A stretch of 64,000 nucleotides of DNA from Acidimicrobiales bacterium (GTDB taxonomy: Bacteria > Actinomycetota > Acidimicrobiia > Acidimicrobiales > Aldehydirespiratoraceae), in the NCBI GenBank assembly GCA_965116485.1, contig OZ220692.1:2459152-2523151 (forward strand), read 5' to 3'. The notes below the pieces were generated by a model, which did not search any database, was not told the origin of the DNA, and was given only the letters and a program-made list of their open reading frames with translations. The translations under genes and the position numbers were made by a program. Positions 8,283-24,504 of the stretch are shown here, piece by piece (the first letter of the stretch is position 1; each line of letters opens with the position of its first letter).

Positions 8283-8287
8283 CCAAT

Positions 8288-8360: not shown

Positions 8361-8371
8361 CGAAGAAACCC

Positions 8372-8702: not shown

Positions 8703-8706
8703 CCAA

Positions 8707-8779
8707 ACGCATGTAGCTCAGTGGATAGAGCATCTGGTTGCGGACCAGAAGGCCGGAGGTTCGACTCCTCTCATGCGTG
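8707..8779 (+). tRNA. tRNA-Arg(GCG)
   Basis: 73 nt: perfect acceptor acgcatg/catgcgt, loop ttGCGga, T-arm ggagg-ttcgact-cctct. No CCA. The anticodon has G34 rather than the usual bacterial A34. Confidence 0.85.
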
Positions 8780-8967
8780 CCGTTCCTGTGTTGACTGTGG
8801 CGTGCAGATCGACACAGACCCCCTAATAGGCTCTCAGGGGGTTGGCCTTGCGTGGAATCGAGACACCGCGCAAGGCGTGACTCGATGGCGTGTCCGCCAA
8901 CACGTCAACGAAGACCGAAGTCTCCGGTCAGAAGCCGCTCGGTATGAGGCCGTCGAGCGGCTCACTA

Positions 8968-9040
8968 TGGCGCGTAGCTCAGTTGGAAGAGCGTCTCGTT
9001 TACACCGAGAGGGCCGCGGGTTCGACCCCTGCCGCGCCAA
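8968..9040 (+). tRNA. tRNA-Val(TAC)
   Basis: 73 nt: acceptor tggcgcg/cgcgcca, loop ttTACac, T-arm gcggg-ttcgacc-cctgc. CCA encoded at 9041-9043. Confidence 0.9.
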
Positions 9041-9200
9041 CCAAAGCGACCACAGTCGCTTCACATTGCTAGCCGCTGGTGTCGGCCAGCGTGGTTCCCG
9101 GACCGCCCGACAGGGGGCACCGACCGAAGACAGAGTTCGATTCTCGGGTCCGGCCTATCCGACTTCTCCTCGCTTCTTCCGTACGGGGAGAAGTCGGCTC

Positions 9201-9273
9201 GGGGGTGTAGCTCAGTAGGTAGAGCGTCTGCTTTGCAAGCAGAAAGTCACGGGTTCGATTCCCGTCTCCTCCA
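9201..9273 (+). tRNA. tRNA-Ala(TGC)
   Basis: 73 nt: acceptor gggggtg/ctcctcc with the G3-U70 Ala identity pair and a U6xU67 mismatch, loop ttTGCaa, T-arm acggg-ttcgatt-cccgt. CCA encoded. Confidence 0.9.
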
Positions 9274-9280
9274 CCATCTC

Positions 9281-9352
9281 GCCCGAGTAGCTCAATTGGC
9301 AGAGCACCTGTCTTGTAAACAGGCGGTAGGAGTTCGACTCTCCTCTTGGGCT
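9281..9352 (+). tRNA. tRNA-Thr(TGT)
   Basis: 72 nt: acceptor gcccgag/cttgggc, loop ctTGTaa, T-arm aggag-ttcgact-ctcct. CCA encoded. Confidence 0.9.
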
Positions 9353-9566
9353 CCAAACCTGAAGGTCCGATTTGTCCGCTTCGGGTCTGATTTGCCGTGA
9401 CTAGTCCTGATCGTAAGATCAGCGGCAGACGCGGAGCACCCCAAGAAGGCTGGGTCCGGGGATCAAGCGGGGACGATGCTCTCGTTTGCGCTCGCCGATC
9501 CCCCGCCCGAGACTAAGCCGGAAGCGAGGTTGGATTCCTCGGGTTTCTGCGGGCCGCTTCGTGCTA

Positions 9567-9640
9567 CGGGTTGTGGCGCAGGCTGGCAGCGCGCCTCGTT
9601 CGGGACGACGAGGTCGACGGTTCAAATCCGTCCAACTCGA
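9567..9640 (+). tRNA. tRNA-Pro(CGG)
   Basis: 74 nt: acceptor cgggttg/caactcg (C1-G72 typical of tRNA-Pro), loop ttCGGga, one CxC mismatch in the anticodon stem, variable aggtc, T-arm gacgg-ttcaaat-ccgtc. No CCA. Confidence 0.8.
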
Positions 9641-9646
9641 CGTCTA

Positions 9647-9720
<74 letters not shown>

Positions 9721-9726
9721 CCACTA

Positions 9727-9799
9727 TCCGGGGTAGCTCAATTGGCAGAGCGGTCGGCTGTTAACCGACATGTTGGAGGTTCGAGTCCTCCCCTCGGAG
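9727..9799 (+). tRNA. tRNA-Asn(GTT)
   Basis: 73 nt: acceptor tccgggg/cctcgga (U1-A72), loop ctGTTaa, T-arm ggagg-ttcgagt-cctcc. No CCA. Confidence 0.9.
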
Positions 9800-9824
9800 C
9801 TTGCACGAAGCGAGTTCAGTTCAT

Positions 9825-9897
9825 GCGCCTCTAGCTCATCTGGAAGAGCGTCGGACTCTTAATCCGAAGGCACTGGGTTCGAGTCCCAGGAGGCGTG
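9825..9897 (+). tRNA. tRNA-Lys(CTT)
   Basis: 73 nt: acceptor gcgcctc/gaggcgt, loop ctCTTaa, T-arm ctggg-ttcgagt-cccag. CCA encoded. Confidence 0.9.
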
Positions 9898-9901
9898 CCA
9901 A

Positions 9902-9973
9902 GCCCCGGCGGTCTACCGGATGGACACCTGGTTTTCACCCAGGAGGCAGCGGGTTCGACTCCCGTCCGGGGTA
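9902..9973 (+). tRNA. tRNA-Glu(TTC)
   Basis: 72 nt: acceptor gccccgg/ccggggt, 3-bp D stem gtc/gac as in tRNA-Glu, loop ttTTCac, T-arm gcggg-ttcgact-cccgt. No CCA. Confidence 0.85.
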
Positions 9974-10002
9974 CGGATGGCTCGTGTGAGCCGACAATTT
10001 TT

Positions 10003-10077
10003 GGCTTCATAGCTCAGTCTGGTTAGAGCGTTGCCCTGTCAAGGCAGAGGTCGCCGGTTCAAATCCGGTTGGAGCCG
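10003..10077 (+). tRNA. tRNA-Asp(GTC)
   Basis: 75 nt: acceptor ggcttca/tggagcc, D gctc/gagc, loop ctGTCaa, T-arm gccgg-ttcaaat-ccggt, G73. CCA encoded. Confidence 0.9.
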
Positions 10078-10089
10078 CCAAAACACCGA

Positions 10090-10163
10090 CGAGGTGTAGC
10101 TCAATTTGGAAGAGCGCCTGGTTCTGACCCAGAAGGTCGCGAGTTCGATCCTCGCCGCCCCTG
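10090..10163 (+). tRNA. tRNA-like gene with Gln(CTG) anticodon; weak acceptor stem, possible pseudogene
   Basis: 74 nt: good D arm (gctc-aatttggaa-gagc) and T-arm gcgag-ttcgatc-ctcgc, loop ttCTGac. Acceptor cgaggtg/cgcccct has two mismatches (1-72, 3-70), plus a C27xA43 mismatch. The 5' half is nearly identical to tRNA-Pro(TGG) at 9647. Confidence 0.5.
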
Positions 10164-10247
10164 CCAACTCGTACCACTGCACCGCGTCCGCACTAGCAAC
10201 CCGCACATTCGTCAGCAATTTCATAGTTAGTGTGGTAGATTGCAGAC

Positions 10248-11078
10248 ATGGTGAACTCCATTGAGCCACGGGAACTGCGCGACATGATGGTCGAGCGCGG
10301 CATCGAGTTCGCTAGCGCTTCGGAGATCGCTGGATGGATCGGCTGCAACCTTCAGGAGGTTCCGCATCGACTGCGCGGAGCGCGACAAGCACGAGAGATG
10401 GTGTGCGTGACGCGTCACGGCTGGGTGCCGACTATTGGTGGACGTGTTGCTCCGAGCACGTTTATGGAACCGATGATGAAACATCTCGGGCACCGGTACT
10501 ACATGGCTGGGTTGTCTGCTGCTGCCCGCCACGGGGCCTCGCACCAAGCGCTGATGGTGGACCACTACGCCACCGACGGGCACCTCTCCAGTCGGAGCAT
10601 CCGAGGGTCGAAGCGTGTTGTGATGTTCCACCGACCGCATATTACAGAGTTCCCGACTGTCGAAATACAAATCAGGAACAGAGCGGGACATGCGTGCCCC
10701 CTCAGAATCTCAACACCGGAAGTATCGTTGTTCGACTTGTTCGCGTTGCACCCGTTCTACGGACAGGATTCCAACCTGAACGTTGCCTGCGAGCTTCTCG
10801 ACCCAGGCCCGCACTTGGAGCCGGTGCTTGATCCCGAAGCGTTGGCTTCTGTGGCAATGCTCTACAGTGTGCCGACCAGACAACGCGTCGGCTTTCTGCT
10901 AGAGGAGATGGCAGAACATGTTGGACGCGACTTCGACCTTGACCCGTTGGAATCGACGTTGGGTGCCGCGGCTAGGACCGTCGAGTATGAGTACGACCCA
11001 GATCGCAGCGAACCACCTATCAAGCATCACGACCGATGGCGAGTGCGCCAGTGGTACGAGATGTGGCCTGACCTGTGA
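10248..11078 (+). CDS. AbiEi-like antitoxin/transcriptional regulator (type IV toxin-antitoxin)
   Basis: 276-aa ORF. Its size, N-terminal wHTH-like region and GTGA overlap with a downstream AbiEii-like fragment fit AbiEi. The family assignment is recollection-level and was not searched. Confidence 0.5.
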   Translation: MVNSIEPRELRDMMVERGIEFASASEIAGWIGCNLQEVPHRLRGARQAREMVCVTRHGWVPTIGGRVAPSTFMEPMMKHLGHRYYMAGLSAAARHGASHQALMVDHYATDGHLSSRSIRGSKRVVMFHRPHITEFPTVEIQIRNRAGHACPLRISTPEVSLFDLFALHPFYGQDSNLNVACELLDPGPHLEPVLDPEALASVAMLYSVPTRQRVGFLLEEMAEHVGRDFDLDPLESTLGAAARTVEYEYDPDRSEPPIKHHDRWRVRQWYEMWPDL

Positions 11079-11308
11079 TCCATCTAAGCGCAATCCAACA
11101 GTGGGAAGAGAATCACCCTTGGCAAGATGATTCCCAAATCGAGCAGGACTTACTTCTTGAAGCAGTGTTGCACCGTGCCGCGAGTACGGGCAGGTTCGGA
11201 GAACTGGTCTTCATAGGCGGGCACGGCGCTACCCCATGTCGACGACGGGTCGCTCCGGGAAAGACATGCCCGATTCACCGTCAACGGCCACAAGGCGCTC
11301 CTTCGTAG
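11075..11308 (+). pseudogene. AbiEii/DUF1814-type nucleotidyltransferase toxin, N-terminal fragment only
   Basis: 77-aa ORF. IEQDLLLEAVLHRAAS...LVFIGG resembles the N-terminus of AbiEii toxins (normally about 250-300 aa). The reading frame decays after FIGG and the gene abuts tRNA-Thr at 11334. Confidence 0.5.
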
Positions 11309-11333
11309 AAGCAAGCCGCCGGGTCTTCCTCTA

Positions 11334-11406
11334 GCCGTTGTAGCTCAGTTGGCAGAGCGCCGTCATGGTAAGACGGAGGTCGCCGGTTCGATCCCGGCCT
11401 TCGGCT
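11334..11406 (+). tRNA. tRNA-Thr(GGT), acceptor stem with two UxU mismatches
   Basis: 73 nt: acceptor gccgttg/cttcggc (5-68 and 6-67 are UxU), loop atGGTaa (A32), T-arm gccgg-ttcgatc-ccggc. No CCA. Confidence 0.7.
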
Positions 11407-11426
11407 CAACGAGCATCGAATATCTA

Positions 11427-11502
11427 GCCCCGTTGGTCTAGTTTGGCTTAGGACACCGCCCTTTCAAGGCGAAGATCACGGGTTCAAATCCCGTACGGGG
11501 TA
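11427..11502 (+). tRNA. tRNA-Glu(TTC)
   Basis: 76 nt: acceptor gccccgt/acggggt, 3-bp D stem gtc/gac with a 13-nt loop, loop ctTTCaa, T-arm acggg-ttcaaat-cccgt, A73. No CCA. Confidence 0.8.
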
Positions 11503-11562
11503 CTGTGCGCCGTAGTGCATCTGTTTGGACAGCGGACGTGTACGGTTTTTGTGGCGCATCAC

Positions 11563-11638
11563 GCTGCGTTGGTCTAGTCAGGTTCAGGACGCCGCCCTGT
11601 CAAGGCGGAGGACACGGGTTCAAATCCCGTACGTGGCG
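11563..11638 (+). tRNA. tRNA-Asp(GTC) built on a Glu-type body
   Basis: 76 nt: acceptor gctgcgt/acgtggc, the same 3-bp D stem gtc/gac with 13-nt loop and the identical T-arm acggg-ttcaaat-cccgt as the Glu gene at 11427, loop ctGTCaa, G73. Confidence 0.8.
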
Positions 11639-11646
11639 CTCATTGC

Positions 11647-11720
11647 AGGCGCGTAGCTCAGTTGGTTAGAGCGCTCCCCTGATAAGGGAGAGGCCGATGG
11701 TTCAACTCCATCCGTGCCTA
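11647..11720 (+). tRNA. tRNA-Ile(GAT)
   Basis: 74 nt: acceptor aggcgcg/cgtgcct, loop ctGATaa, T-arm gatgg-ttcaact-ccatc. No CCA. Confidence 0.9.
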
Positions 11721-11725
11721 CAAGA

Positions 11726-11815
11726 GGAACGGTGGCGGAGTCCGGTTGATCGCACCGCCCTGCTAAGGCGGAGACGCACGACGTGTGTCCGTGGGTTCAA
11801 ATCCCACCCGTTCCG
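11726..11815 (+). tRNA. tRNA-Ser(GCT)
   Basis: 90-nt class II tRNA: acceptor ggaacgg/ccgttcc, loop ctGCTaa, long variable arm, T-arm gtggg-ttcaaat-cccac. CCA encoded. Confidence 0.9.
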
Positions 11816-11822
11816 CCAACAT

Positions 11823-11896
11823 GTCGGCGTGCCCGAGCGGACTAAGGGAGCTGCCTGCAAAGCAGCGATTCACGGGTTCAAATCCCGTCGCCGACT
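11823..11896 (+). tRNA. tRNA-Cys(GCA)
   Basis: 74 nt: acceptor gtcggcg/cgccgac, anticodon arm gctgc-ctGCAaa-gcagc, T-arm acggg-ttcaaat-cccgt, U73 (Cys identity). CCA encoded. Confidence 0.85.
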
Positions 11897-11900
11897 CCAG

Positions 11901-11975
11901 GGTTCGGTAGCTCAGATTTGGAAGAGCGCCTGTCTGAAAAGCAGGAGGCCGGCGGTTCGATTCCTGCTCGAACCA
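11901..11975 (+). tRNA. tRNA-Phe(GAA) with a defective T stem
   Basis: 75 nt: acceptor ggttcgg/tcgaacc, loop ctGAAaa. The T-arm ggcgg-ttcgatt-cctgc has two mismatched pairs (50-64, 51-63). No CCA. Confidence 0.65.
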
Positions 11976-11984
11976 CATCAACAC

Positions 11985-12071
11985 GTCAGTATGGCGCGAG
12001 CGGCGAAGGCACTCGGCTGTAAACCGAGCGAGGCGAAAGCCTCTTCCCCGGTTCAAGTCCTGGTGCTGCCA
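11985..12071 (+). tRNA. tRNA-Tyr(GTA), class II, several imperfect pairs
   Basis: 87 nt: perfect anticodon arm ctcgg-ctGTAaa-ccgag and variable arm gaggc-gaaa-gcctc. Acceptor gtcagta/tgctgcc (one mismatch), weak 3-bp D stem, T-arm cccgg-ttcaagt-cctgg (one mismatch). Confidence 0.6.
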
Positions 12072-12084
12072 CACAGTCTCATAA

Positions 12085-12170
12085 GCGGGCGTGGCGAAGC
12101 TGGTAGACGCGCCGGGCTTAGGACCCGGTGGGGTGGAAGCCCCGTGTGAGTTCGACTCTCACCGCCCGCA
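12085..12170 (+). tRNA. tRNA-Leu(TAG)
   Basis: 86-nt class II tRNA: acceptor gcgggcg/cgcccgc, loop ctTAGga, T-arm gtgag-ttcgact-ctcac, A73. Confidence 0.9.
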
Positions 12171-12175
12171 CTCAC

Positions 12176-12249
12176 GGTGATATAGCTCAGTTGGTTAGAG
12201 CGGCGCGCTCATAACGCGTAGGCCCCTGGTTCGATTCCAGGTATCACCA
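12176..12249 (+). tRNA. tRNA with CAT anticodon (elongator Met or lysidine-type Ile2; not an initiator)
   Basis: 74 nt: acceptor ggtgata/tatcacc with G1-C72, loop ctCATaa, anticodon stem gcgcg/cgcgt (no GGG/CCC initiator signature), T-arm cctgg-ttcgatt-ccagg. Confidence 0.85.
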
Positions 12250-12259
12250 CCGAACACTC

Positions 12260-12345
12260 GCGGGAGTGGTGAAGCTGGTAGACACGCCAGATTCAAAATC
12301 TGGTGGGCTGAGAGGCCCGTGTGGGTTCGACCCCCACCTCCCGCA
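12260..12345 (+). tRNA. tRNA-Leu(CAA)
   Basis: 86-nt class II tRNA: acceptor gcgggag/ctcccgc, loop ttCAAaa, T-arm gtggg-ttcgacc-cccac. CCA encoded. Confidence 0.9.
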
Positions 12346-12356
12346 CCATCAGAATT

Positions 12357-12429
12357 GCCTCTGTAGCTCAATTGGATGAGCGTCCGGTTTCTACCCGGAG
12401 GGCTGCGGGTTCGAGTCCTGCCAGGGGCG
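12357..12429 (+). tRNA. tRNA-Arg(TCT)
   Basis: 73 nt: acceptor gcctctg/caggggc, loop ttTCTac, T-arm gcggg-ttcgagt-cctgc. No CCA. Confidence 0.9.
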
Positions 12430-12621
12430 CTGTTAGCTGACGATCTCCGCGTTGTTCACGGTGTGACCGACGCGTACGCGGCTTTGGTCAACGCGGCGAC
12501 AGCTTCGTAACGGTCGTCATGCCGAGCGCACGGCTCGATCCAAACCTGTTTCTGATCCACAACGTCGATGGTAACCACCCTGCCAGACGCCATTACGACG
12601 ATCTACAGTTCCCACCATCTT

Positions 12622-12694
12622 GCGTCTCTAGCTCAACTGGTAGAGCAGCGGACTTTTAATCCGACGGTTCTGGGTTCGAGTCCCAGGAGACGTT
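12622..12694 (+). tRNA. tRNA-Lys(TTT)
   Basis: 73 nt: acceptor gcgtctc/gagacgt, loop ctTTTaa, T-arm ctggg-ttcgagt-cccag. No CCA. Confidence 0.85.
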
Positions 12695-12736
12695 CTGCAA
12701 ACCGACACACACCAGAACACAGAGAGGACAACCGCG

Positions 12737-13489: not shown

Positions 13490-13696
13490 CGTCGGATGGG
13501 ATGGGAACGGCGGCAAGGGTCAACAGCCGTCGAAAGCCGCTCGGCCCGGAGGGAAACCAGGCCAGCGCATACGCTCCCAAGACCAGCACAAACAAACCCG
13601 GACAGAGCCCCCACGGGCACCATCCGATATAAAGCCCCTAATTTGCCCTGTTCAGAAAGGGTGCTCGGCACCGGCCACGCCCGGCAACCAGCACAG

Positions 13697-13770
13697 CACC
13701 TCCGACAGGACTCGAACCTGCAACCTGCGAGGTAGAAGCTCGCTGCTCTATCCAGTTGAGCTACGGAGGC
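13697..13770 (-). tRNA. tRNA-Arg(TCT)
   Basis: 74 nt on the minus strand: acceptor gcctccg/cggaggt, loop ctTCTac, T-arm gcagg-ttcgagt-cctgt. Confidence 0.85.
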
Positions 13771-13854
13771 ACAATAATCGTACGCCGAGTGCCGCAACTC
13801 GGTACACTCAATGCCTGACTCCGCTCCGGGTCAACGCTCGGAACGGGGCAACAT

Positions 13855-13929
13855 GGTGGGCGTAGCTCAGTTGGTTAGAGCGCCTGGTTGTGGTCCAGGA
13901 GGTCGGGGGTTCGAGTCCCCTCGTTCACC
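13855..13929 (+). tRNA. tRNA-His(GTG) with encoded G-1
   Basis: 75 nt including G-1 (13855) opposite C73: acceptor gtgggcg/cgttcac, loop ttGTGgt, T-arm ggggg-ttcgagt-cccct. Confidence 0.9.
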
Positions 13930-13955
13930 CGTAGAATCGCCTTCGGTCGATACGC

Positions 13956-14028
13956 GCACCTCTAGCTCAATTGGCAGAGCAACGGACTCTTAATCCGCAG
14001 GTTCTGGGTTCGAGTCCCAGGGGGTGTA
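13956..14028 (+). tRNA. tRNA-Lys(CTT)
   Basis: 73 nt: acceptor gcacctc/ggggtgt, loop ctCTTaa, T-arm ctggg-ttcgagt-cccag. CCA encoded at 14029-14031. Confidence 0.85.
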
Positions 14029-14102
14029 CCACAGGCTCCAGATCTTGCACTGCCTCAGCGGAGCCACAACAGCGAATCGAGCAGTTTCACGAAGCTGGCT
14101 CC

Positions 14103-14534
14103 CTAGTGCGGATTCAGAACCTCGACGCGCCGCGGGTCAGCAGAGATCGCTGCCATAGCCTGGTCGAAAGTGGCAACGCAACCGTCGTAGCGCTCGGCCA
14201 AGGACAACAGGTGGAGATCGGTGACCTGTCGATGACCGGTGACCCCCGCTCGGTGCCAAGCCTGCGAGCGTGCCGGAACGATGTCGTCCACCCAGAATCG
14301 GTGCCCGGTGAATTCGGTGAGTGATCGCAGCACCGCCGCTGCCTCCCGCGGTGGGCGAGCATCAGCGAGTACACGCGAGTTCGAGGAAACACGGATAAAG
14401 CCCAACTGCACCACGGCCGACGTAGCCCATGATTCAACCCTTCGGGAGAGAAACCAGTCGACGGCTGCGCCGTGGTGAAGATGAGTAGGCCATGCCAAGG
14501 CAACGAGTACGTTGACGTCTAGAAGTGGTGTCAC
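14103..14534 (-). CDS. vapC: PIN-domain toxin VapC
   Basis: 143 aa: LLDVNVLVAL N-terminal acidic motif, later VTDLHLLSLA and ATFD acidic positions typical of PIN. 4-bp overlap with the upstream antitoxin gene. Confidence 0.8.
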   Translation of the reverse strand: MTPLLDVNVLVALAWPTHLHHGAAVDWFLSRRVESWATSAVVQLGFIRVSSNSRVLADARPPREAAAVLRSLTEFTGHRFWVDDIVPARSQAWHRAGVTGHRQVTDLHLLSLAERYDGCVATFDQAMAAISADPRRVEVLNPH

Positions 14535-14752
14535 CAGTCTTCGCTCGCTGAACGGACCATCTCAGGGGTGATTGGTTGACTGGCTGGTTCGACGGTGAAT
14601 CCCGGAACAGCACGCCTCGTGTCCACAGGCCGGTCTTGCAGTCCTTTGCGAGCCAAGTCCGAAACTGCGGTACCGACCGATACACCACGTTCGCGAGCGA
14701 GCGAGCGCGCCACCGCAAGAACATCATCAGCCAAATTCAGTGTTGTGCGCAT
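14531..14752 (-). CDS. vapB: VapB-type antitoxin
   Basis: About 73 aa: MRTTLNLADDVLAVARSLARERGVSVGTAVSDLARKGL is typical of VapB-like antitoxins. The ORF track starts at GTG 14755; ATG 14752 is the likelier start. Confidence 0.7.
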   Translation of the reverse strand: MRTTLNLADDVLAVARSLARERGVSVGTAVSDLARKGLQDRPVDTRRAVPGFTVEPASQPITPEMVRSASEDW

Positions 14753-14758
14753 CACAAC

Positions 14759-14787
14759 ATCATAGCATCATATTGCGGTTTTGACAC
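14759..14787 (-). promoter_or_regulatory. Candidate vapBC promoter giving a leaderless mRNA
   Basis: Minus strand reads gtgtca-N17-TATGAT-gttgtg-ATG. The -10 TATGAT (14759-14764) ends 6 nt before ATG 14752. A direct repeat atcata-gc-atcata overlaps the -10. Confidence 0.35.
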
Positions 14788-14813
14788 TACGGATTACCTT
14801 GCGGTGGGGAACC

Positions 14814-14925
14814 AACCCGCGGGCGATCGACAAAGTGACCGGGTCACCGGCGTGGATCGAGGCGAACAGCACCGCGACCATGGCGACCGCTGCTGCCAGC
14901 AAGTCCAGGAGCGGAGGAAACTCCG
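14814..14925 (-). pseudogene. 112-bp fragment homologous to the membrane-protein gene at 32276-33130
   Basis: 14814-14925 aligns without gaps to 32661-32772 (about 15 mismatches by eye). It translates to PPLLDLLAAAVAMVAVLFASIHAGDPVTLSIARGLV versus PPSLDLAAAAVAMVAVLFASINAGDPVALSIARGLV. Confidence 0.8.
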
Positions 14926-14939
14926 ACGTCTGCGTCGAG

Positions 14940-15236
14940 ATCGTGCTCAACAACGTGCCCACCCTGGGTGAATCGCATCAGGCATGGCAGCTCAACGAGA
15001 TCAGCTCGCTGATCTGGCCGTCCCCGCTCGGAGCGGGCGTGATGGACCCGGACCTGTGGGCCCAGACGGTCGACGTCGCCACCAGCGAGGGCATTCTCGG
15101 CGCAGCTCCGGACGACGGCGCCGATCGCACCGACATCGCCGAAGAGGCGCTCGAGAACCTGCGCGATCAGGGCATCGACGTGGTCGGCTCCGATTTCGAA
15201 CGGATTGTCGTCGAGCTTCGCGAAGGCGGCGAGTAG
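14940..15236 (+). pseudogene. 3' fragment of a solute-binding-protein-like gene
   Basis: Only the tail ...NNVPTLGESHQAWQLNEISSLIWPSPLGAGVMDPDLWAQTVDV...VVGSDFERIVVELREGGE reads like a real protein. It resembles the C-terminus of NMT1/THI5-type ABC substrate-binding proteins, which is weak recollection-level similarity. No N-terminal part is present. Confidence 0.3.
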
Positions 15237-15263
15237 CGCACGCGCCCGGCAGAACCTGATCCG

Positions 15264-15644
15264 CTAAAGCGGATCCGACTGGAAGACGCCCAGGACGTTG
15301 CCGCTCGGGTCCAAGAAGTGGAACCGCCGTCCCCCCGGGTAGGGGTAGATCGCTGAGATGATCTCCCCTCCCGCGGCGACCACTTCAGTCTGTTTGGCTT
15401 CGATGTCGGAGCAGCTGACCAGCACGAACGGACCGATCGGGTCCTCTGATCCCGGCGCATGGGCCGGGGCGGCCGTACCCGCGCCGTTGAGTCCGACCTC
15501 GACCGCGCCGCCTTCGTGGGCGACATAGCTGGGCCCGTATTCGGTCCAGTCCCAGCCGAACACCCGGCTGTAGAACTGCTTGGTCTGCTCCAACTGCGGC
15601 GCAGGAAGCTCAACGTAGTCGATCTGCAATCTGTCGCTCGCCAT
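15264..15644 (-). CDS. VOC (glyoxalase/bleomycin-resistance) family protein
   Basis: 126 aa: IDYVELPAPQLEQTKQFYSRVFGW ... RRFHFLDPSGNVLGVF is a typical VOC-fold pattern. Confidence 0.75.
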   Translation of the reverse strand: MASDRLQIDYVELPAPQLEQTKQFYSRVFGWDWTEYGPSYVAHEGGAVEVGLNGAGTAAPAHAPGSEDPIGPFVLVSCSDIEAKQTEVVAAGGEIISAIYPYPGGRRFHFLDPSGNVLGVFQSDPL

Positions 15645-15719
15645 CGCCCGACTCTACCCGGCCACACAGCCGACCACATAAGCAACCGGGGCTCCGGCTA
15701 CGCCCGGCGACCAGCAACG

Positions 15720-15793
15720 CACCTCCGACAGGACTCGACCCTGCAACCCGCGAGGTAGAAGCTCGCTGCTCTGTCCAGTCGAGCTACGGTGGC
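15720..15793 (-). tRNA. tRNA-Arg(TCT) copy 2, probably degenerate
   Basis: Same frame as 13697-13770, but acceptor gccaccg/cggaggt has an A4xA69 mismatch and the T-loop reads gtcgagt (T54 replaced by G). Confidence 0.55.
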
Positions 15794-15877
15794 GGAATAA
15801 TCGTACGCCGAGTGCCGCAACTCGGCACCCCCAATGCCTGACTCCGCTCCGGGTCAACGCCCGGGACGGGGCAACAT

Positions 15878-15952
15878 GGTGGGCGTAGCTCAGTTGGTTA
15901 GAGCGCCTGGTTGTGGTCCAGGAGGTCGGGGCTTCGAATCCCCTCGTTCACC
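15878..15952 (+). tRNA. tRNA-His(GTG) copy 2, T-arm altered
   Basis: Identical acceptor, G-1 and anticodon arm to copy 1. The T-arm is ggggc-ttcgaat-cccct, which breaks the near-invariant G53-C61 pair. Confidence 0.65.
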
Positions 15953-15978
15953 CGTAGAATCGCCTTCGGTCGATTCGC

Positions 15979-16051
15979 GCACCTCTAGCTCAATTGGCAG
16001 AGCAACGGACTCTTAATCCGCAGGTTCTGGGTTCGAGACCCAGGGGGTGTA
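15979..16051 (+). tRNA. tRNA-Lys(CTT) copy 2
   Basis: Same cloverleaf as 13956-14028. T-loop is ttcgaga, and the 3' trailer is caa instead of cca. Confidence 0.75.
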
Positions 16052-16128
16052 CAACGCAAAACCCCTAGTCAGTACAAGTTCTGTGCCGACCTGGGGTTCT
16101 GTCGTCCAGGTACGGGACACGTCCGTGG

Positions 16129-16887
16129 TTACACGGTGGCCCCAACAGATCCGCGCCCTGGCCCCTCCTCACGCCCTGAAGCGGCCCAGACCATGCCGCG
16201 GCGCATGATCTCGGTAACCTCAGGCTTGCGGAGGTCGTCGATCTCATGGCCGATCGAGCAGTAGAAGACTCGGCCCTGGTCCCACCGTCGCTTCCACACG
16301 ACCGGGATCGTGGACCCTTCGATCCACCAGAGATGGTCGCCGGAGAAGGTCGTCGTCGCGAGAACGTCGTTCGAAGGGTCGACGAGCATGTAGTACTGCT
16401 CCGACAGCAGCCGGAAGCTTCCGATCCCCGCAACGATCGGGTCGGCCGGTTTGGTGATCGTGACGTCGTAGTCGACATAGTCATCGGATGGGACGGGGTT
16501 GTCGGGCCACCCGGGCGGATGGGCAACGAACTGGCCACCGATGAGGAAGTGGTACGTGGGCCGATCCCGGAACGCGTCCCCCATGTGACCGTGCCAACCC
16601 GCAATCCCACAGCCGTTAGCGATCAATTCGAGCAGGCCATCTTCTTCGGCCTTGTTCATGTTGCCGAATTCGGGCTGGTGAGCCGAGCGTGCGCTCGACC
16701 AGATCGGCACGATCAGGTCGACGTCGGCCATGGAACCCGGGGTAGCCAGCGGCGCCAAGGTGTCATAGGAGAAGACGTTGAAGCCCTCCGCTTCCAGAAG
16801 GTCGGTGGCCCAGTCGCAGAATGCCTGCGGTCTGTGCCCCTCCCAACCTCCGACGAACAAGGCCGCGGTCTTGGTGGCTCTGGTCAC
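16129..16887 (-). CDS. ThuA-domain protein
   Basis: 252 aa. Resembles ThuA (trehalose-utilisation) family proteins: GWHGHMGDAF, FVAHPPGW, VFYCSIGH. Confidence 0.7.
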   Translation of the reverse strand: MTRATKTAALFVGGWEGHRPQAFCDWATDLLEAEGFNVFSYDTLAPLATPGSMADVDLIVPIWSSARSAHQPEFGNMNKAEEDGLLELIANGCGIAGWHGHMGDAFRDRPTYHFLIGGQFVAHPPGWPDNPVPSDDYVDYDVTITKPADPIVAGIGSFRLLSEQYYMLVDPSNDVLATTTFSGDHLWWIEGSTIPVVWKRRWDQGRVFYCSIGHEIDDLRKPEVTEIMRRGMVWAASGREEGPGRGSVGATV

Positions 16888-17750
16888 GAGTTGCTCCTGA
16901 GATGTGAGAGAACGGCCGCCATGTCGCGCTCACCGAAGCCGTCAGCTTCCGCCGAGCGGAGCTGGGCCAGGTTGAGTTCGGTCTGCGGCAGCGCGACATC
17001 GGTCGCTGCCGCGAGCTCGACGGCGAGTTCCAGGTCTTTGCGCGCCAAAGAAAGGGCGAAAGACACCGGGTTGTCAGCTTCTGCGAGATACTGGGGCTTT
17101 CGGTAGCCGATCATCGGCGCGGCAGCCGCGGAGTTCTCGATCACCTCGTACGCGAGCGCCGGTTCGACACCATTCGTTTCGGCCAGCGTCAGCGCTTCAC
17201 TCAGCGATTGGTTGACGCTGTGGATCATGAGGTTGACGGCCAGCTTCATGGTTGCGGCGGTGCCAGGCTGACCGAGCCAGATGATCTGTCGGCTCATGGC
17301 CTCGAGTGTCGGCCGGATCACCTCGCCGGTCTCTGCGTCGGCTCCGACCATGATGAGGAGTCGGGCTGAGCTCGCCGCGTCGATCGAACCCGACACCGGA
17401 GCGTCGATCACGAGCCGTTGGCCGCTCGACGCCTGCAACTCACGAACATGCTCCACGCTCAGCGTGCCCATCTCTACGAACACCTGCGCACCGCGGGCGG
17501 CCGCAAAGAGGCCGTCATCTCCGAAGTGCACAGCGCGCGATGCGTCATCGTCGGCCAGCATCGTGATCACGATGTCGCAGCCTTCGGCCACTACGCGAGG
17601 CGTGTCGGCAATCTCAGCGCCGATTTCGTCGGCCAGCGCGGTCGCCTTCGGGCGGCTCCGGTTCCACAGCATCAGTGAAAACCCGGCCTGAGCCAGGTTG
17701 ACCGCCATCGGTGCGCCCATTCGCCCGAGACCGATGACGCCGACTCGCAT
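16884..17750 (-). CDS. NAD(P)-dependent oxidoreductase, 3-hydroxyisobutyrate dehydrogenase family
   Basis: Real start MRVGVIGLGRMGAPMAVNL (ATG 17750, overlapping the upstream TGA by 1 nt). The remainder of ORF 16884-18410 is antisense to the SDR gene. Confidence 0.8.
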   Translation of the reverse strand: MRVGVIGLGRMGAPMAVNLAQAGFSLMLWNRSRPKATALADEIGAEIADTPRVVAEGCDIVITMLADDDASRAVHFGDDGLFAAARGAQVFVEMGTLSVEHVRELQASSGQRLVIDAPVSGSIDAASSARLLIMVGADAETGEVIRPTLEAMSRQIIWLGQPGTAATMKLAVNLMIHSVNQSLSEALTLAETNGVEPALAYEVIENSAAAAPMIGYRKPQYLAEADNPVSFALSLARKDLELAVELAAATDVALPQTELNLAQLRSAEADGFGERDMAAVLSHLRSNS

Positions 17751-18565
17751 CACACGAGCTCCATCCCGCCATCGATCATGACGATCTGGCCGGTCATATA
17801 ATCGCTGGCCGGCGATGCCAGGAAGGTCGTGGTGCCGACGATGTCGGCAGGTGTGGCAACACGCCCCTTCAAGATCTCCGACGAGAACTCCTCCATCGCC
17901 TGCCCCGGCCGCTCCGCCGCCCCGATCTCCATGAGGTCTCTGTCGACCTCTTCCCACATCTCGGTCGCAACCACCCCGGGAGCGAACCCCGTCACCGTGA
18001 TGTCGTGCTTGGCGAGGTCTCGCGCTGCGGACTGGGTGAGCGAGACGGCGGCCCACTTCGACGCGCAGTACGGGGCGACATTGTCGAACCCCTGACGGCT
18101 TGCGATCGACGCGGTGTTGATGATCTTGCCTCCGGTTCCTTGGGCGATCATCTGTTTGGCCGCCTCCTGCGTTCCGATCAGGACCCCGAGTCCGTTCACC
18201 CGCATGATGAAGTCCCAGTTCTCCTCGGTGACGTCCAAGAAGTTCATGGGCTTGTTGACACCCGCATTGTTGAACTTCACATCGAGCCGTCCGAACGCAT
18301 CGACGGTCTGCGCGATCATCGCCTGGACCTGGCTGCGGTCGGTGACGTCGACCGCGACCCCGAGGACCTTCACACCCAGCGCTGCAGCCCGCGGCTCGTT
18401 CGCAGCGCATACCTCGGCGACAAGATCGGCGTTGAGATCAGCGAAGCACACGTGGGCGCCCTCGGCGACGAGGGCCTCGCCGATCGCACGACCGATCCCG
18501 CGCGCCGCACCGGTGACGATGCAGGCGCGGCCGTTCATAACTCCCATCGGACAACTCCTCTTCAC
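17750..18565 (-). CDS. Short-chain dehydrogenase/reductase (SDR)
   Basis: CIVTGAARGIGRAIGEAL (TGxxxGxG), NNAG, YCASKWA catalytic YxxxK. The start could be an internal ATG a few codons in. Confidence 0.85.
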   Translation of the reverse strand: MKRSCPMGVMNGRACIVTGAARGIGRAIGEALVAEGAHVCFADLNADLVAEVCAANEPRAAALGVKVLGVAVDVTDRSQVQAMIAQTVDAFGRLDVKFNNAGVNKPMNFLDVTEENWDFIMRVNGLGVLIGTQEAAKQMIAQGTGGKIINTASIASRQGFDNVAPYCASKWAAVSLTQSAARDLAKHDITVTGFAPGVVATEMWEEVDRDLMEIGAAERPGQAMEEFSSEILKGRVATPADIVGTTTFLASPASDYMTGQIVMIDGGMELV

Positions 18566-19605
18566 GAGCGGCTCGGCGCCGGCTCGACTGAATGTTCTCT
18601 CGGCTGAGCGGTCGACTCGCGAACGACCAACTCGGGAGCCAGCATCACCTCGGTGTCGGCTCGGTTCCCCTGATGTCGGACAAAACCCAGTTCGGCGGCC
18701 AAGCGCCCGAGTTCATAGCCCGGGAGCCGGATGGTGGTCAGTGGCACCCGAAGCCGGTCGCTGAGAGGAACGTCGTTGAACCCGACCACGGAGATTTCGC
18801 TTGGGCACTCAAGTCCGCTCGCTCGCATCGTCTCGATCGCCCCGACGGCGATGCTGTCGTTGTGAGCGAAGAGCGCGGTGGGCAAGTCCTCGGGACGGTT
18901 CAAAAGGACGGTCGCGAGTTGCTCACCGGCCTCGAGGGTCGGCAGGTGAACGGCGGCATCGATATTGATGCATTCCCCACCCCCCGCCTCGATGACATCG
19001 CGGAAGCCGCGACCCCGAGCCTCGAACGATGAGATGTCCTGGGGTCCGATGAGTTGCGCGACGCGTTTGTGGCCGAGGGAGAGCAAGTGCTCAGCCGCGA
19101 GCCGGCCACCGGCCACGTCATCGTGGGCCACCGTACAGATGCCGGACCCGGGCAGTTCACGAACCGCCAGCACCAACGGGACCTCGTCGGCCACCCGTCG
19201 CAGGAGGGCGCGGTCCTGGCATCTCGCGGCCGCCACGATCAGCCCGTCGACTCGCTGGGCGAGCAACTTGTCGCAGATCCTTGCCAACTCCTCGGACGAG
19301 TCGCGTGACTCGATCATGATGGGAAGGAGATCTCTGCTGCTCAGGGCGTTTGCAATGCCGCGCAGGACGGGTCCCACGAAGGGGTTGCTGAGGTCAGCGA
19401 CGACCACTCCGATCGTTCCCGTGCGTCCACGGCGCAGGGCCGATGCCTGCAGGTTGCCTCGATAGCCCAACGCGTTGGCGGCCTCGAGGACCCGCAGACG
19501 GGTCGCAGGTTTCACTAGCGCCTGCTTGTCGGCACTCAGCGCCCGCGACGCTGTCGCCACGTTCACTCCGGCCTGGTCGGCAACGTCTTTGAGGGTGACA
19601 CGCAT
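18562..19605 (-). CDS. LacI-family transcriptional regulator
   Basis: N-terminal HTH MRVTLKDVADQAGVNVATASRAL followed by a periplasmic-binding-fold effector domain. Confidence 0.85.
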   Translation of the reverse strand: MRVTLKDVADQAGVNVATASRALSADKQALVKPATRLRVLEAANALGYRGNLQASALRRGRTGTIGVVVADLSNPFVGPVLRGIANALSSRDLLPIMIESRDSSEELARICDKLLAQRVDGLIVAAARCQDRALLRRVADEVPLVLAVRELPGSGICTVAHDDVAGGRLAAEHLLSLGHKRVAQLIGPQDISSFEARGRGFRDVIEAGGGECINIDAAVHLPTLEAGEQLATVLLNRPEDLPTALFAHNDSIAVGAIETMRASGLECPSEISVVGFNDVPLSDRLRVPLTTIRLPGYELGRLAAELGFVRHQGNRADTEVMLAPELVVRESTAQPREHSVEPAPSRS

Positions 19606-19709
19606 CAGGCAATTATTCCCGATTCCGGCGTTAAGTCGCGGAACCCAGAGCTTCCTGGAGGAGGGATCCGTCCCTCCGGGTCCCGCGACTTCACGCCATC
19701 AATCGACTC

Positions 19710-20798
19710 CTACCACTCTGGAGCGACAGACGGGTCGTCGGCGTTTTCGGCGGTGACCTTCACCGAGGGCATGAACTTCACGACACGCTCACCGGAGCCG
19801 CCGCCGGTCAGTACCTCGTGGGCGGTGACCGCAGCGTTCTCTCCATCCCAGCTCGACGACTGGAACACGGTGCCGTCGATCTGCCCGTCGATCACGAGCG
19901 GGTTGCCGAGGAAGGTGTTGCCGATCGAGGTGATGATGAGATCGGCCGGATCGATGTCGCGGGCGATGAGCGCATCGACCACACCGGCGACCATCGTGTC
20001 GTCAGCGGCGTACACGCCACCGATGTTCTCAGCGCCGACCGCGGTGATCATCTCCGACGCCGCGAGCTGCGAGTCGTCCTTGTTCCAGTTGCCCGGCTGA
20101 TCAGCGAGAATCGTCACGTTCGGGCAGTTCGCCGCGACCGTGTCCTCGAAGCCGGCCTTGCGGTCGATCGCCGTGGAGTTGCCCGCCGCGCCGTTCACCA
20201 TGATGATGCCGACTTCGTCGTCGCCGGCAAACTCACAGAACATCTCGGCCGAGGACACGCCCTGGCCGTACGTGTCGGGACCCGAGTACGCCGCTGACAG
20301 CGCCTGGTCGTCCGGGATCAGGTCGGAGTTGGTGACCGTCACCGGGATGCCGGCATCGGCCGCTGCCTCGAGACATGGACGCACTTGGTCGCCCACCGCC
20401 GGCCACAGGATGATGAGGTCCGGATCAGCTGCGACGGCGACCTCGCAGTCGCTGGCCTGCTGTTCACCGTCATAGCCGGAGTTGACGATGTTGAGGTTCA
20501 AGCCGAGTTCGTCAGCCTTCGCCCGGAAGGGCGGCAGGTAGGTCGTGCCGTACGGCTGATCGTTGCCCTGCGGAAGCAGCGCGAACACCTCGAACGTCTC
20601 GCTGTCATCGGACGAAGCAGTGTCATCGGACGAAGCGCTGTCATCGGACGAAGCAGTGTCATCGGACGAAGCAGTGTCATCGGACGAACCGCTGTCATCG
20701 TCGCCGCATGCAGCAGCCACGAGCGTGAACGCGACGAGCACGCTCACAAGCAGCCTCCACCGCTTGGTCGGGTTGGGGTTCTCTCTCATTGGATTCAC
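19710..20798 (-). CDS. Sugar-type ABC transporter substrate-binding lipoprotein
   Basis: Signal peptide with lipobox LVAAACGDD, an acidic SSDDTA repeat linker, then a periplasmic sugar-binding fold. Confidence 0.8.
   Translation of the reverse strand: MNPMRENPNPTKRWRLLVSVLVAFTLVAAACGDDDSGSSDDTASSDDTASSDDSASSDDTASSDDSETFEVFALLPQGNDQPYGTTYLPPFRAKADELGLNLNIVNSGYDGEQQASDCEVAVAADPDLIILWPAVGDQVRPCLEAAADAGIPVTVTNSDLIPDDQALSAAYSGPDTYGQGVSSAEMFCEFAGDDEVGIIMVNGAAGNSTAIDRKAGFEDTVAANCPNVTILADQPGNWNKDDSQLAASEMITAVGAENIGGVYAADDTMVAGVVDALIARDIDPADLIITSIGNTFLGNPLVIDGQIDGTVFQSSSWDGENAAVTAHEVLTGGGSGERVVKFMPSVKVTAENADDPSVAPEW
20601..20700. repeat. 18-bp tandem repeat (about 5.5 copies) in the SBP linker
   Basis: The unit (g/a)(c/g)tgtcatcggacgaagc is repeated head to tail and encodes SSDD(T/S)A repeats on the minus strand. 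Confidence 0.85.
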
Positions 20799-20870
20799 TG
20801 GATCCTTTCTTGGTGTCGAGATCTCGACATTGTGGTTTTCACTGGTTTTCAGCGATTGGGTTGGGGAGCC

Positions 20871-24496: not shown

Positions 24497-24504
24497 TTGC
24501 CACG

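What the first reader, a model, noticed from the sequence alone, without database searches (positions are those of the whole stretch)
13671..16055. A 362-bp three-tRNA cassette (Arg-TCT on the minus strand, His-GTG, Lys-CTT) is directly repeated around a 1.66-kb patchwork insert
13671-14032 and 15694-16055 align without net indels, at roughly 90 percent identity by eye. Between them lie vapBC, two gene fragments and a VOC gene. The second copy carries substitutions at conserved tRNA positions: an A4xA69 mismatch and T54 to G in Arg, a broken G53-C61 pair in His, and cca changed to caa after Lys. This suggests one redundant, decaying copy. Direct repeats of this length could also excise or amplify the intervening vapBC segment by homologous recombination.
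Basis: seen in the sequence. Interest (0 to 1): 0.6.

Follow-up and report, generated by a model that had tools for sequence, protein, structure and literature searches.

The report
Duplicated tRNA cassette, one copy decaying
A sponge-associated actinobacterium carries two copies, 2 kb apart, of its housekeeping Arg-His-Lys tRNA gene cluster; one copy is intact and the other is decaying into pseudogenes, which is an ordinary fate for a duplicated gene.

Summary
Windows 13671-14030 and 15694-16053 are collinear with no indels and 94.2% identical (339/360). Each holds tRNA-Arg(TCT, minus strand), His(GTG) and Lys(CTT). Between them lie vapBC, two gene fragments and a VOC gene.

The cassette is a genus-conserved housekeeping locus and the genome's only source of tRNA-His. 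All 8 differences inside tRNA bodies are derived in copy B, at positions invariant in 15 of 15 genus relatives:
- Arg: U4A (A4xA69), A14G, U20aC, A44G, U54G
- His: G53C, G59A
- Lys: U60A

Three more B-specific changes hit an invariant TACACT motif in the divergent promoter spacer. B scores lower on the tRNA covariance model for all three genes. A conspecific strain adds U55C to Arg-B, while copy A is invariant across five assemblies. Copy B is therefore a decaying pseudo-cassette.

Copy B, not A, keeps the ancestral left flank. Copy A adjoins a mobile 29-tRNA array. The two copies, about 9% apart in spacers, were probably brought together by a recent 667-kb inversion symmetric about the terminus. 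That inversion is marked by 98.8-100% identical inverted gene-fragment duplicates.

This is a well-documented example of an ordinary process.

The parts
13667..14032 (.). Cassette copy A: tRNA-Arg(TCT) 13696-13770 (-), divergent promoter spacer, tRNA-His(GTG) 13855/6-13930 (+, with encoded G-1), tRNA-Lys(CTT) 13956-14031 (+). This is the working copy.
   Evidence: The tRNA bodies are identical to 15 genus relatives. The copy is invariant in five conspecific assemblies.
15690..16055 (.). Cassette copy B: Arg 15719-15793 (-), His 15878/9-15953 (+), Lys 15979-16052 (+). This is the decaying pseudo-cassette in the ancestral left context.
   Evidence: It carries 14 B-derived substitutions, 8 of them in tRNA bodies. 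Covariance-model scores are lower for all three genes. It is polymorphic between strains, including U55C in Arg-B. Its left flank (VOC) is collinear with relatives.
13802..13811 (.). Conserved TACACT/ACTCAA motif in the Arg-His spacer, a candidate overlapping -10 element for the divergent tRNA promoters. Copy B reads CACCCC (15825-15830).
   Evidence: The three positions changed in B are invariant or nearly so in relatives (15/15, 14/15, 15/15). The promoter role is inferred. The strict sigma-70 scan did not call it.
14103..14755 (-). vapBC type II toxin-antitoxin pair: VapC 14103-14534 and VapB-like 14531-14755, with a 4-nt overlap. A promoter-like site lies at 14787-14759.
   Evidence: PIN domain. 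TIGR00028 at 98.3 bits against a cut-off of 73.6. Promoter scan. The best relative outside the species is 64% identical, in another Acidimicrobiales MAG, and none was found in the genus.
14811..14928 (+). Fragment 2: an 86% copy of part of the gene at 32658-32775, which lies in the native right flank of the cassette locus.
   Evidence: It is 82-87% identical to the same gene in relatives.
14919..15241 (+). X': the 3' 323 bp of the NMT1/THI5-type binding-protein gene X. A full copy lies inverted about 667 kb away (genome 1807113-1807435). It marks the right end of the inversion. A 7-nt microhomology, AACTCCG (14919-14925), joins it to fragment 2.
   Evidence: It is 98.8% identical to X in this genome and 100% identical to X in the SRR23553011 assembly. 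The junction sequence is shown.
15264..15644 (-). VOC/glyoxalase-family gene, the ancestral left neighbour of the cassette in all genus relatives.
   Evidence: Pfam PF00903. Synteny.
7885..12695 (+). 29-gene tRNA array with no tRNA-His, followed by HNH (12737-13279) and a truncated MNT (13283-13489). It is the left neighbour of copy A.
   Evidence: A related array with an intact MNT-HepT pair lies at a different chromosomal site in relative G009.
16056..30685 (.). 14.6-kb metabolic island (ThuA, dehydrogenases, LacI, sugar ABC transporter, E1 dehydrogenase, aldehyde dehydrogenase) inserted exactly at the 3' end of tRNA-Lys of copy B. It is absent at this place in relatives.
   Evidence: No tRNA-derived repeat was found at its far end.

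Best explanation
The two 362-bp units are paralogous copies of the genus-conserved housekeeping tRNA cluster Arg(TCT)-His(GTG)-Lys(CTT).

Copy A (13667-14032) is the working copy. Its three tRNAs are identical to the genus consensus, and it is effectively the cell's only intact tRNA-His gene.

Copy B (15690-16055) is redundant and evolves at about the neutral rate. It has lost universally conserved tertiary and stem positions in Arg (A14, U54, the 4:69 pair) and His (the G53-C61 pair). It has also lost the conserved -10-like motif of the divergent promoters. Arg-B and His-B are therefore pseudogenes or nearly so. Lys-B is less damaged.

The copies did not arise where they now lie. They split about as long ago as the neighbouring species did (9% spacer divergence). 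Copy B stayed at the native locus (X-VOC-cassette-R). Copy A, with vapBC and a fragment of an R-like gene, lay at the end of a mobile tRNA-array island in the P|Q intergenic region on the other replichore.

A much younger 667-kb inversion, symmetric about the GC-skew switch, then placed A 1.66 kb upstream of B in direct orientation. It left inverted duplicates of the X gene tail at both ends and a 7-nt microhomology junction.

Shown: the repeat, the direction of decay, the synteny break, and the independent assemblies. Inferred: loss of function and expression of B, the promoter role of TACACT, and the order of events.

Also inferred: deletion by recombination between the repeats is restricted. 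Only crossovers to the right of 13915 would keep an intact His gene. The deletion would also remove the vapBC addiction module.
For: Repeat:
-.

Housekeeping role:
- None of the 46 tRNA genes outside the window is His-GTG, Lys-CTT or Arg-TCT, and the array has no His.
- The cassette is single-copy and syntenic in most of the genus relatives.

Direction of decay:
- The 8 tRNA-body differences split 8 B-derived to 0 A-derived, each at a position invariant in 15/15 relatives.
- In the spacers, 5 differences are B-derived, 3 A-derived and 4 ambiguous.
- Rfam scores are lower for all three B genes.
- The Arg-B minimum-energy fold is not a cloverleaf.

Population data:
- Against GCA_044628435.1, cassette B has 5 differences in 362 bp, including U55C, while the adjacent island has 3 in 8.8 kb.
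- Cassette A has none in that assembly or in the Logan contigs.

Inversion:
- In seven relatives P adjoins Q, and X adjoins VOC-cassette-R.
- The midpoint of the inversion, 2.14 Mb, coincides with the GC-skew switch at about 2.15-2.2 Mb.
- X' is 98.8-100% identical to X, against 94% for A versus B.
- A 25-nt VOC remnant lies beside X at the left junction.
- The microhomology junction is shown.
- Both junctions appear in independent assemblies.

Array mobility:
- A related array lies at another site in G009.
- An array-type tRNA-Lys(TTT) fragment lies in the P|Q gap of G005.
Against: - No expression or aminoacylation data exist. All three B genes still pass the Rfam gathering score (49-61 bits against 29), and all three anticodon arms are intact, so residual function, especially of Lys-B, is not excluded.
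- The spacer tree is unresolved (bootstrap 20-84). Whether A is a xenolog that came with the island or an old intragenomic paralog cannot be decided.
- The cluster of strain differences in VOC plus cassette B (8 in about 565 bp) may be an imported recombination tract rather than in-situ decay.
- The reconstruction assumes the shared arrangement of the relatives is ancestral.
- The mechanism that first put a cassette copy at the array island is unknown, and no integrase is present.
Confidence: 0.68

Rival explanations
1. Local tandem duplication at the native locus. A unit X'-VOC-cassette(-vapBC-fragment) duplicated in place through the AACTCCG microhomology, and one copy then decayed. On this view the inversion is unrelated and broke the locus just to the left of copy A.
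For: Relatives G001 (Arg-His-Lys, 1.7 kb, His-Lys) and G003 (three cassettes, X'-VOC duplicated in direct order) show that local duplications do occur at this locus. A novel junction with microhomology is the usual signature of tandem duplication.
Against: A single event should give equal ages. X'/X differ by 0-1.2%, whereas A/B differ by 5.8% overall and 9% in spacers. From B's neutral rate, about 12 or more differences are expected in X', but only 0-4 are observed. Copy B is followed by the ThuA island, not by vapBC and the fragment. The two X' copies sit in inverted orientation exactly at the two ends of the inverted segment. Two 94% repeats lying 2 kb apart for that long would be expected to be homogenised or deleted.
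Confidence: 0.17
2. The repeats are attL/attR of an integrative element that targets the tRNA cluster. On this view the 1.66-kb insert is a degraded island and the repeat is the duplicated attachment site.
For: The right edge of the repeat coincides with the 3' end of tRNA-Lys, and the left edge lies about 29 nt beyond the 3' end of tRNA-Arg. Both are classic island insertion points. The flank downstream of Lys carries different insertions in this genome, in G001 and in G003.
Against: No integrase or recombinase lies in 14033-15693 or nearby. The repeat covers three whole tRNA genes plus spacers, not a 3' tRNA segment. The copies are only 94% identical. The supposed insert contains the ancestral left-flank genes X' and VOC in their ancestral order.
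Confidence: 0.04
3. Copy B is not decaying but specialised. Its variant tRNAs, with intact anticodon arms, would serve another role, such as decoys or substrates for the neighbouring tRNA-directed toxins (VapC, HepT-type), regulatory tRNA-like RNAs, or nuclease-resistant spares.
For: All three anticodon arms are unchanged. All three genes are still called as tRNAs. The copy lies beside a VapC and near an array with AbiE, MNT and HNH modules.
Against: With 8 substitutions, missing all three anticodon arms happens by chance about 12% of the time. The changes hit universally required positions (A14, U54, G53-C61). They occur at about the neutral spacer rate (3.6% against 3.7-6.6%). They differ between strains (U55C in one, and the 15831 change in the other), which indicates drift rather than selection. 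The conserved promoter motif is also destroyed.
Confidence: 0.06
4. Assembly artefact. On this view the second copy is a strain variant or chimeric join in a long-read metagenome-assembled genome.
For: The genome is a single-contig MAG and its relatives are MAGs. Reads could not be inspected.
Against: Short-read assemblies from other samples reproduce three stretches: array-A-vapBC-fragment-X' (GCA_044628435.1 contig 128; Logan SRR2157455, 100% over 13995-14979), X'-VOC-B-ThuA island (contig 74), and the left inversion junction (four assemblies). The inversion is symmetric about the GC-skew switch.
Confidence: 0.02

Closest known systems
Duplicated bacterial tRNA genes or operons, with one paralog later lost or pseudogenised. 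The experimental birth of tRNA gene copies by segmental duplication in Pseudomonas fluorescens SBW25 is described in PMC7661048 (title and abstract seen).
   Same: A segment carrying tRNA genes is present twice. Redundancy relaxes selection on one copy. Direct repeats flank intervening genes.
   Different: Here the copies are old (9% spacer divergence) and were probably juxtaposed by an inversion rather than made in place. The copy in the native context is the one that decays.
tRNA array units (at least 20 tRNA genes at 2 or more per kb), often mobile. See Tran et al. 2016 (PMC4758250); Morgado and Vicente 2018 (PMC5966550); and the long arrays used under translational stress (PMC8421152). Titles and abstracts were seen.
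   Same: Copy A directly adjoins a 29-tRNA array that moves between chromosomal sites within the genus and carries toxin-antitoxin and HNH genes.
   Different: The cassette itself is the genus-wide housekeeping cluster, not an array-type paralog. The array lacks tRNA-His, which only the cassette supplies.
Replication-symmetric chromosomal inversions about the origin or terminus (general knowledge of bacterial genome evolution; inverted duplications at breakpoints follow the staggered-break model described for Drosophila inversions).
   Same: The 667-kb inverted segment is centred on the GC-skew switch. Inverted duplicates of a 323-bp or longer stretch sit at both ends.
   Different: A side-effect here is the creation of a direct repeat of two pre-existing tRNA cassettes.
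Chromosomal VapBC modules as stabilisers of dispensable DNA. The addiction or anti-deletion role of chromosomal toxin-antitoxin loci is established knowledge from integron and genomic-island studies.
   Same: An apparently intact vapBC with its own promoter-like site lies between two recombinogenic repeats.
   Different: No evidence here that it is active or stabilises anything. This is inference only.

Membership tests
Paralogous tRNA operon with a pseudogenised copy | Two collinear copies far beyond chance | tested here: met
   339/360 identical with no indels; E = 6.8e-160.
Paralogous tRNA operon with a pseudogenised copy | One copy retains the lineage consensus | tested here: met
   The tRNA bodies of copy A are identical to 15 genus relatives, apart from lineage variants in the Lys D-loop of some relatives.
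Paralogous tRNA operon with a pseudogenised copy | The other copy carries derived substitutions at conserved structural positions, at about the neutral rate | tested here: met
   The 8 tRNA-body differences split 8 B-derived to 0 A-derived. They are A14G, U54G and the 4:69 mismatch (Arg), G53C (His), U60A (Lys), plus three others. The rate is 3.6% in tRNA bodies against 3.7-6.6% in B spacers.
Paralogous tRNA operon with a pseudogenised copy | Loss of expression or function of the degenerate copy | not testable with these tools
The only indirect evidence is the lower covariance-model scores and the destroyed TACACT motif.
tRNA-targeting integrative island (attL/attR repeats) | Integrase or recombinase encoded within or beside the bounded segment | tested here: not met
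   Pfam found PIN, a VapB-like ORF, Glyoxalase, HNH, NTP_transf_2 and AbiEi only.
tRNA-targeting integrative island (attL/attR repeats) | Repeat limited to a short, near-identical 3' tRNA segment | tested here: not met
   The repeat spans three whole tRNA genes plus spacers and is 94% identical.
VapBC type II toxin-antitoxin | PIN-domain VapC toxin above the family threshold | tested here: met
   TIGR00028 at 98.3 bits against a cut-off of 73.6; PF01850.
VapBC type II toxin-antitoxin | Small upstream antitoxin gene overlapping the toxin gene, with its own promoter | tested here: inconclusive
   A 74-aa ORF overlaps vapC by 4 nt, and a promoter-like site lies at 14787-14759. The only family hit is weak (DUF6364, E = 0.0088, below the cut-off).
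tRNA array unit (Tran et al. 2016 definition) | At least 20 tRNA genes at 2 or more per kb | tested here: met
   This applies to the neighbouring block only, which has 29 tRNA genes in 4.8 kb at 7885-12695. The duplicated cassette is a housekeeping locus by synteny, not array-derived.

The most novel reading that the evidence does not exclude
The mobile tRNA-array island captured a complete copy of the host genus's housekeeping Arg-His-Lys cluster. This supplied the one amino acid (His) that the array lacks. The chromosome's own copy then decayed. As a result the cell's only intact tRNA-His gene now belongs to, or is fused to, a mobile island flanked by toxin-antitoxin modules. This would be host dependence on an island through replacement of an essential gene. 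The vapBC pair, and the lethality of most A-B crossovers, would lock the arrangement in place.
Probability: 0.15. Interest if true: 0.6.

Novelty: new member of a known kind. Interest (0 to 1): 0.3.

Why it matters
This is a clean natural example of tRNA gene death. The genus keeps all three tRNA bodies invariant, so every change in copy B can be polarised. B changes at about the spacer rate, hits universally conserved positions first in Arg and His, and continues to diverge between strains.

It also shows that a direct repeat next to a mobile-looking segment need not come from integration or local duplication. Here a replication-symmetric inversion most likely brought two old paralogs together.

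For annotation, the genome should be read as having one functional tRNA-His gene, not two. No new mechanism is implied.

Tried and rejected
- **Pattern scans of JGI metagenome contigs.** I searched for the deletion product (left flank of A, cassette, right flank of B) and for the circle/tandem junction (left flank of B, cassette, right flank of A). Both gave 0 hits. This is a weak negative.
- **tRNA-derived attR-like repeat at the far end of the 14.6-kb island near 30686.** Nothing of 12 nt or more beyond chance was found.
- **Donor of vapBC.** I looked for vapBC next to a tRNA-Lys in other genomes. The best VapC relative (64%) has no tRNA nearby, and no genus member carries it.
- **Spacer-only maximum-likelihood tree.** This was meant to decide whether A and B are sisters, but the tree was unresolved.
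- **Strict sigma-70 scan for the tRNA promoters.** It found only the vapBC promoter-like site. The TACACT reading rests on conservation alone.
- **Exact-protein look-up of the window's VOC.** It was not on record. The strain variant led back to the same JGI/NCBI contig.
- **Integrative-element and assembly-artefact readings.** Both were rejected, as set out under the rival explanations.
Full report
**1. The observation**

ARAGORN finds 35 tRNA genes in the window. They include Arg(tct, minus strand)/His(gtg)/Lys(ctt) at 13696-14031 and again at 15719-16052.
- The two units align in register at an offset of 2023 with no indels.
- Identity is 339/360 (94.2%) over 13671-14030 and drops to random outside 13667-14032.
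- The genome-wide BLAST E-value is 6.8e-160.

The interval between the copies holds five features:
- VapC at 14103-14534(-). It has a PIN domain and scores 98.3 bits on TIGR00028 against a cut-off of 73.6.
- A 74-aa VapB-like ORF at 14531-14755(-), with a promoter-like site upstream.
- An 86% copy of 32658-32775 at 14811-14928.
- The last 323 bp of an NMT1/THI5-type binding-protein gene ('X') at 14919-15241.
- A Glyoxalase/VOC gene at 15264-15644(-).

**2. What the cassette is**

The window is positions 2459152-2523151 of a single-contig 3.55-Mb genome. Record titles of relatives identify it as an Acidimicrobiales, 'Ca. Aldehydirespiratoraceae'-type MAG. Conspecific contigs come from a sponge metagenome labelled Tswi.

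The genome has 81 tRNA genes. None of the 46 outside the window is His-GTG, Lys-CTT or Arg-TCT. The 29-gene array at 7885-12695 has Lys-CTT and Arg-TCT but no His. The cassette is therefore the housekeeping source of tRNA-His.

Most of the 17 other genomes of the genus carry one full copy of the same Arg-His-Lys cluster. In most of them the order is X - VOC - cassette - R, where R is this genome's 30686 onward and begins with a LigD primase-polymerase gene.

**3. Which copy decays**

I aligned A, B and the cassettes of 15 genus relatives and polarised the 21 A/B differences.
- All 8 differences inside tRNA bodies are derived in B, at positions invariant in 15/15 relatives.
- In the spacers, 5 are B-derived, 3 A-derived and 4 ambiguous.

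Mapped on the ARAGORN cloverleafs, the B changes are:
- Arg-B: U4A (giving A4xA69), A14G, U20aC, A44G, U54G.
- His-B: G53C (breaking G53-C61), G59A.
- Lys-B: U60A.

A14, U54 and G53-C61 are near-universal tRNA features (established knowledge).

The B-specific rate is 8/224 (3.6%) in tRNA bodies and 5-9/136 (3.7-6.6%) in B's spacers. B's tRNA bodies therefore evolve at about the neutral rate, while A's have not changed at all.

Further points:
- Three B-derived spacer changes turn an invariant TACACT (13802-13807) into CACCCC. On the opposite strand the same changes alter TTGAGT. I read this motif as overlapping -10 elements of the divergent Arg and His-Lys promoters. That is an inference from conservation; the strict consensus scan did not call it.
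- Rfam tRNA scores for A versus B are 64.8/49.0 (Arg), 64.5/58.3 (His) and 64.4/60.9 (Lys).
- Arg-A's minimum-energy fold is a perfect cloverleaf. Arg-B's is not.
- The CCA-to-CAA change after Lys-B is weak evidence. Two relatives (G008, with a single copy, and G003) have the same base, and neither Arg nor His encodes CCA in either copy.

**4. Population data**

Exact-protein look-ups retrieved independent assemblies of the same species.
- GCA_044628435.1 contig 128 corresponds to window 7131-15018. It carries A, vapBC, fragment 2 and the start of X' with no difference from this genome. Its only difference in 13400-15018 is at 13417.
- Contig 74 of the same assembly equals 15174-24887 with 11 differences. 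Five are in cassette B: 15738 (U55C of Arg-B), 15815, 15831 (back to the A state), 15834 and 15847. Three are in VOC. Only three are in the remaining 8.8 kb.
- Logan contigs from four other runs show copy A unchanged as far as they reach.
- A 985-bp contig from SRR2157455 matches 13995-14979 at 100%.

These results rule out an assembly artefact. They show B drifting between strains while A stays fixed. The cluster of differences in VOC plus B could partly be an imported recombination tract. Even so, the donor would have carried the same degenerate cassette, because 20 of the 21 diagnostic differences are shared.

**5. How the direct repeat arose**

Copy B has the ancestral left flank, because X'-VOC-B is collinear with relatives. 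Copy A does not.

In seven relatives, the genes that here lie about 632-652 kb upstream of the window, in inverted order, run directly into VOC. In the same relatives, the gene block 'P' (ending at genome position 1806986) directly adjoins 'Q', the acyl-CoA dehydrogenase gene that ends at window 7310. The gap between P and Q is 0.2-2.7 kb and holds no tRNA array. This genome therefore has an inversion of about 667 kb.

Supporting evidence for the inversion:
- Its midpoint, 2.14 Mb, coincides with the GC-skew switch at about 2.15-2.2 Mb. This is the classic replication-symmetric pattern.
- Its two ends carry inverted copies of the X tail. X' (14919-15241) is 98.8% identical to X in this genome and 100% identical to X in the SRR23553011 assembly.
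- At the left junction, a 25-nt piece of VOC (15398-15422) abuts X.
- The right junction joins fragment 2 to X' through a 7-nt microhomology, AACTCCG.
- Both junctions occur in independent assemblies.

Everything to the left of 14919 lies inside the inverted segment. That includes fragment 2, vapBC, copy A, the truncated MNT, HNH and the array. Before the inversion these features lay beside P, on the other replichore, in the opposite orientation to B.

The timing fits. A and B differ by 9.0% in spacers (12/134), about as much as either differs from sister species G005 (10.4%). X and X' differ by 0-1.2%. A single local duplication should give equal ages. Repeats 2 kb apart for that long would also be expected to be homogenised or deleted.

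The array is mobile:
- G009 has a related array, with HNH and an intact MNT-HepT pair, at a different site near tRNA-Pro(TGG).
- The P|Q gap of G005 keeps an array-type tRNA-Lys(TTT) fragment.

The block A - vapBC - fragment 2 has the order and orientation of 'cassette - R'. Fragment 2 is 82-87% identical to R in every available genome, this one included. I therefore think it more likely than not that this block is a piece of another lineage's cassette locus that travelled with the array island. An old intragenomic paralog is not excluded.

Relatives G001 (an extra His-Lys copy 1.7 kb downstream) and G003 (three cassettes beside Calx-beta giant genes, with an IS110) show that the locus is a recurrent rearrangement hot spot.

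**6. Consequences (inference)**

The longest perfect A/B tracts are 66 bp (13843-13908) and 62 bp (13953-14014), so RecA-mediated deletion is possible in principle. A deletion keeps the left part of A and the right part of B. Only crossovers to the right of 13915 would leave an intact tRNA-His. Every deletion would also remove vapBC and VOC. If VapBC is active, loss would be counter-selected.

No deletion or circle junction was found in JGI contigs. This negative is weak, and reads could not be examined.

**7. Comparison with known systems, and verdict**

This is a paralogous tRNA operon with one pseudogenised copy, a known kind of event.
- It is not an att-site duplication. No integrase is present, the repeat covers whole genes, and the copies are only 94% identical.
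- The neighbouring array fits the published definition of a tRNA array unit (PMC4758250, PMC5966550).
- New information from this study: the direction of decay is proven against the genus; additional invariant positions are hit; decay continues between strains; the native-context copy is the one dying; and a young terminus-symmetric inversion most likely created the direct-repeat geometry.
- Interest is modest.

Noticed in passing
window 14911 and genome position 1,807,113 (about 652 kb upstream of the window): A roughly 667-kb chromosomal inversion relative to seven genus relatives. It is centred on the GC-skew switch. Inverted 323-bp duplicates of the X gene tail sit at both ends, a 25-nt VOC remnant lies at the left junction, and a 7-nt microhomology lies at the right junction.
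   Followed up: yes
window 7420-7580: A dispersed repeat of about 150 bp (MITE- or REP-like) between the acyl-CoA dehydrogenase gene and the tRNA array. At least 14 copies at 93-98% identity occur elsewhere in this genome, and many occur in relatives G002, G005, G008 and G009.
   Followed up: partly
window 11888-12170 (Cys/Phe/Tyr/Leu part of the tRNA array): The array is structurally polymorphic between conspecific assemblies. GCA_044628435.1 contig 128 and Logan SRR23553010 carry a diverged or extra segment here, while the rest of the array is about 99.9% identical.
   Followed up: partly
L043 (G009 contig C9) 13373-18251: Relative G009 has a related array of about 20 tRNA genes, with HNH and an intact MNT-HepT toxin-antitoxin pair, at a different chromosomal site near tRNA-Pro(TGG). 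In this genome only the N-terminal 69 codons of MNT survive (13283-13489) and HepT is gone.
   Followed up: partly
L153 (G005 contig C30) 2033-2068, in the P|Q intergenic gap: An array-type tRNA-Lys(TTT) fragment. It is 97% identical to window 12629-12663, and 92% identical over 87 nt to the G009 array. It lies in the same intergenic region where this genome's array would have been before the inversion. This suggests a former or recurrent array site.
   Followed up: partly
window 16056-30685: A 14.6-kb metabolic island (ThuA, two SDRs, a 3-hydroxyacid dehydrogenase, LacI, a sugar ABC transporter, an M24 peptidase, E1 alpha/beta, an aldehyde dehydrogenase) is inserted exactly after the 3' end of tRNA-Lys of copy B. 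It is absent there in relatives. It has no mobility gene and no flanking repeat.
   Followed up: partly
L033 (G001) 12794-15046; L034 and L035 (G003): Other species of the genus independently carry extra copies of the cassette. G001 has an extra His-Lys pair 1.7 kb downstream, around an SDR gene. G003 has three copies, each beside a Calx-beta protein gene of about 1100 aa, with an IS110 transposase between two of them. These extra copies are mostly intact.
   Followed up: partly
window 13490-13666: A 177-bp stretch between the truncated MNT gene and copy A has no detectable homolog in this genome or in the fetched relatives. Its origin is unknown.
   Followed up: partly
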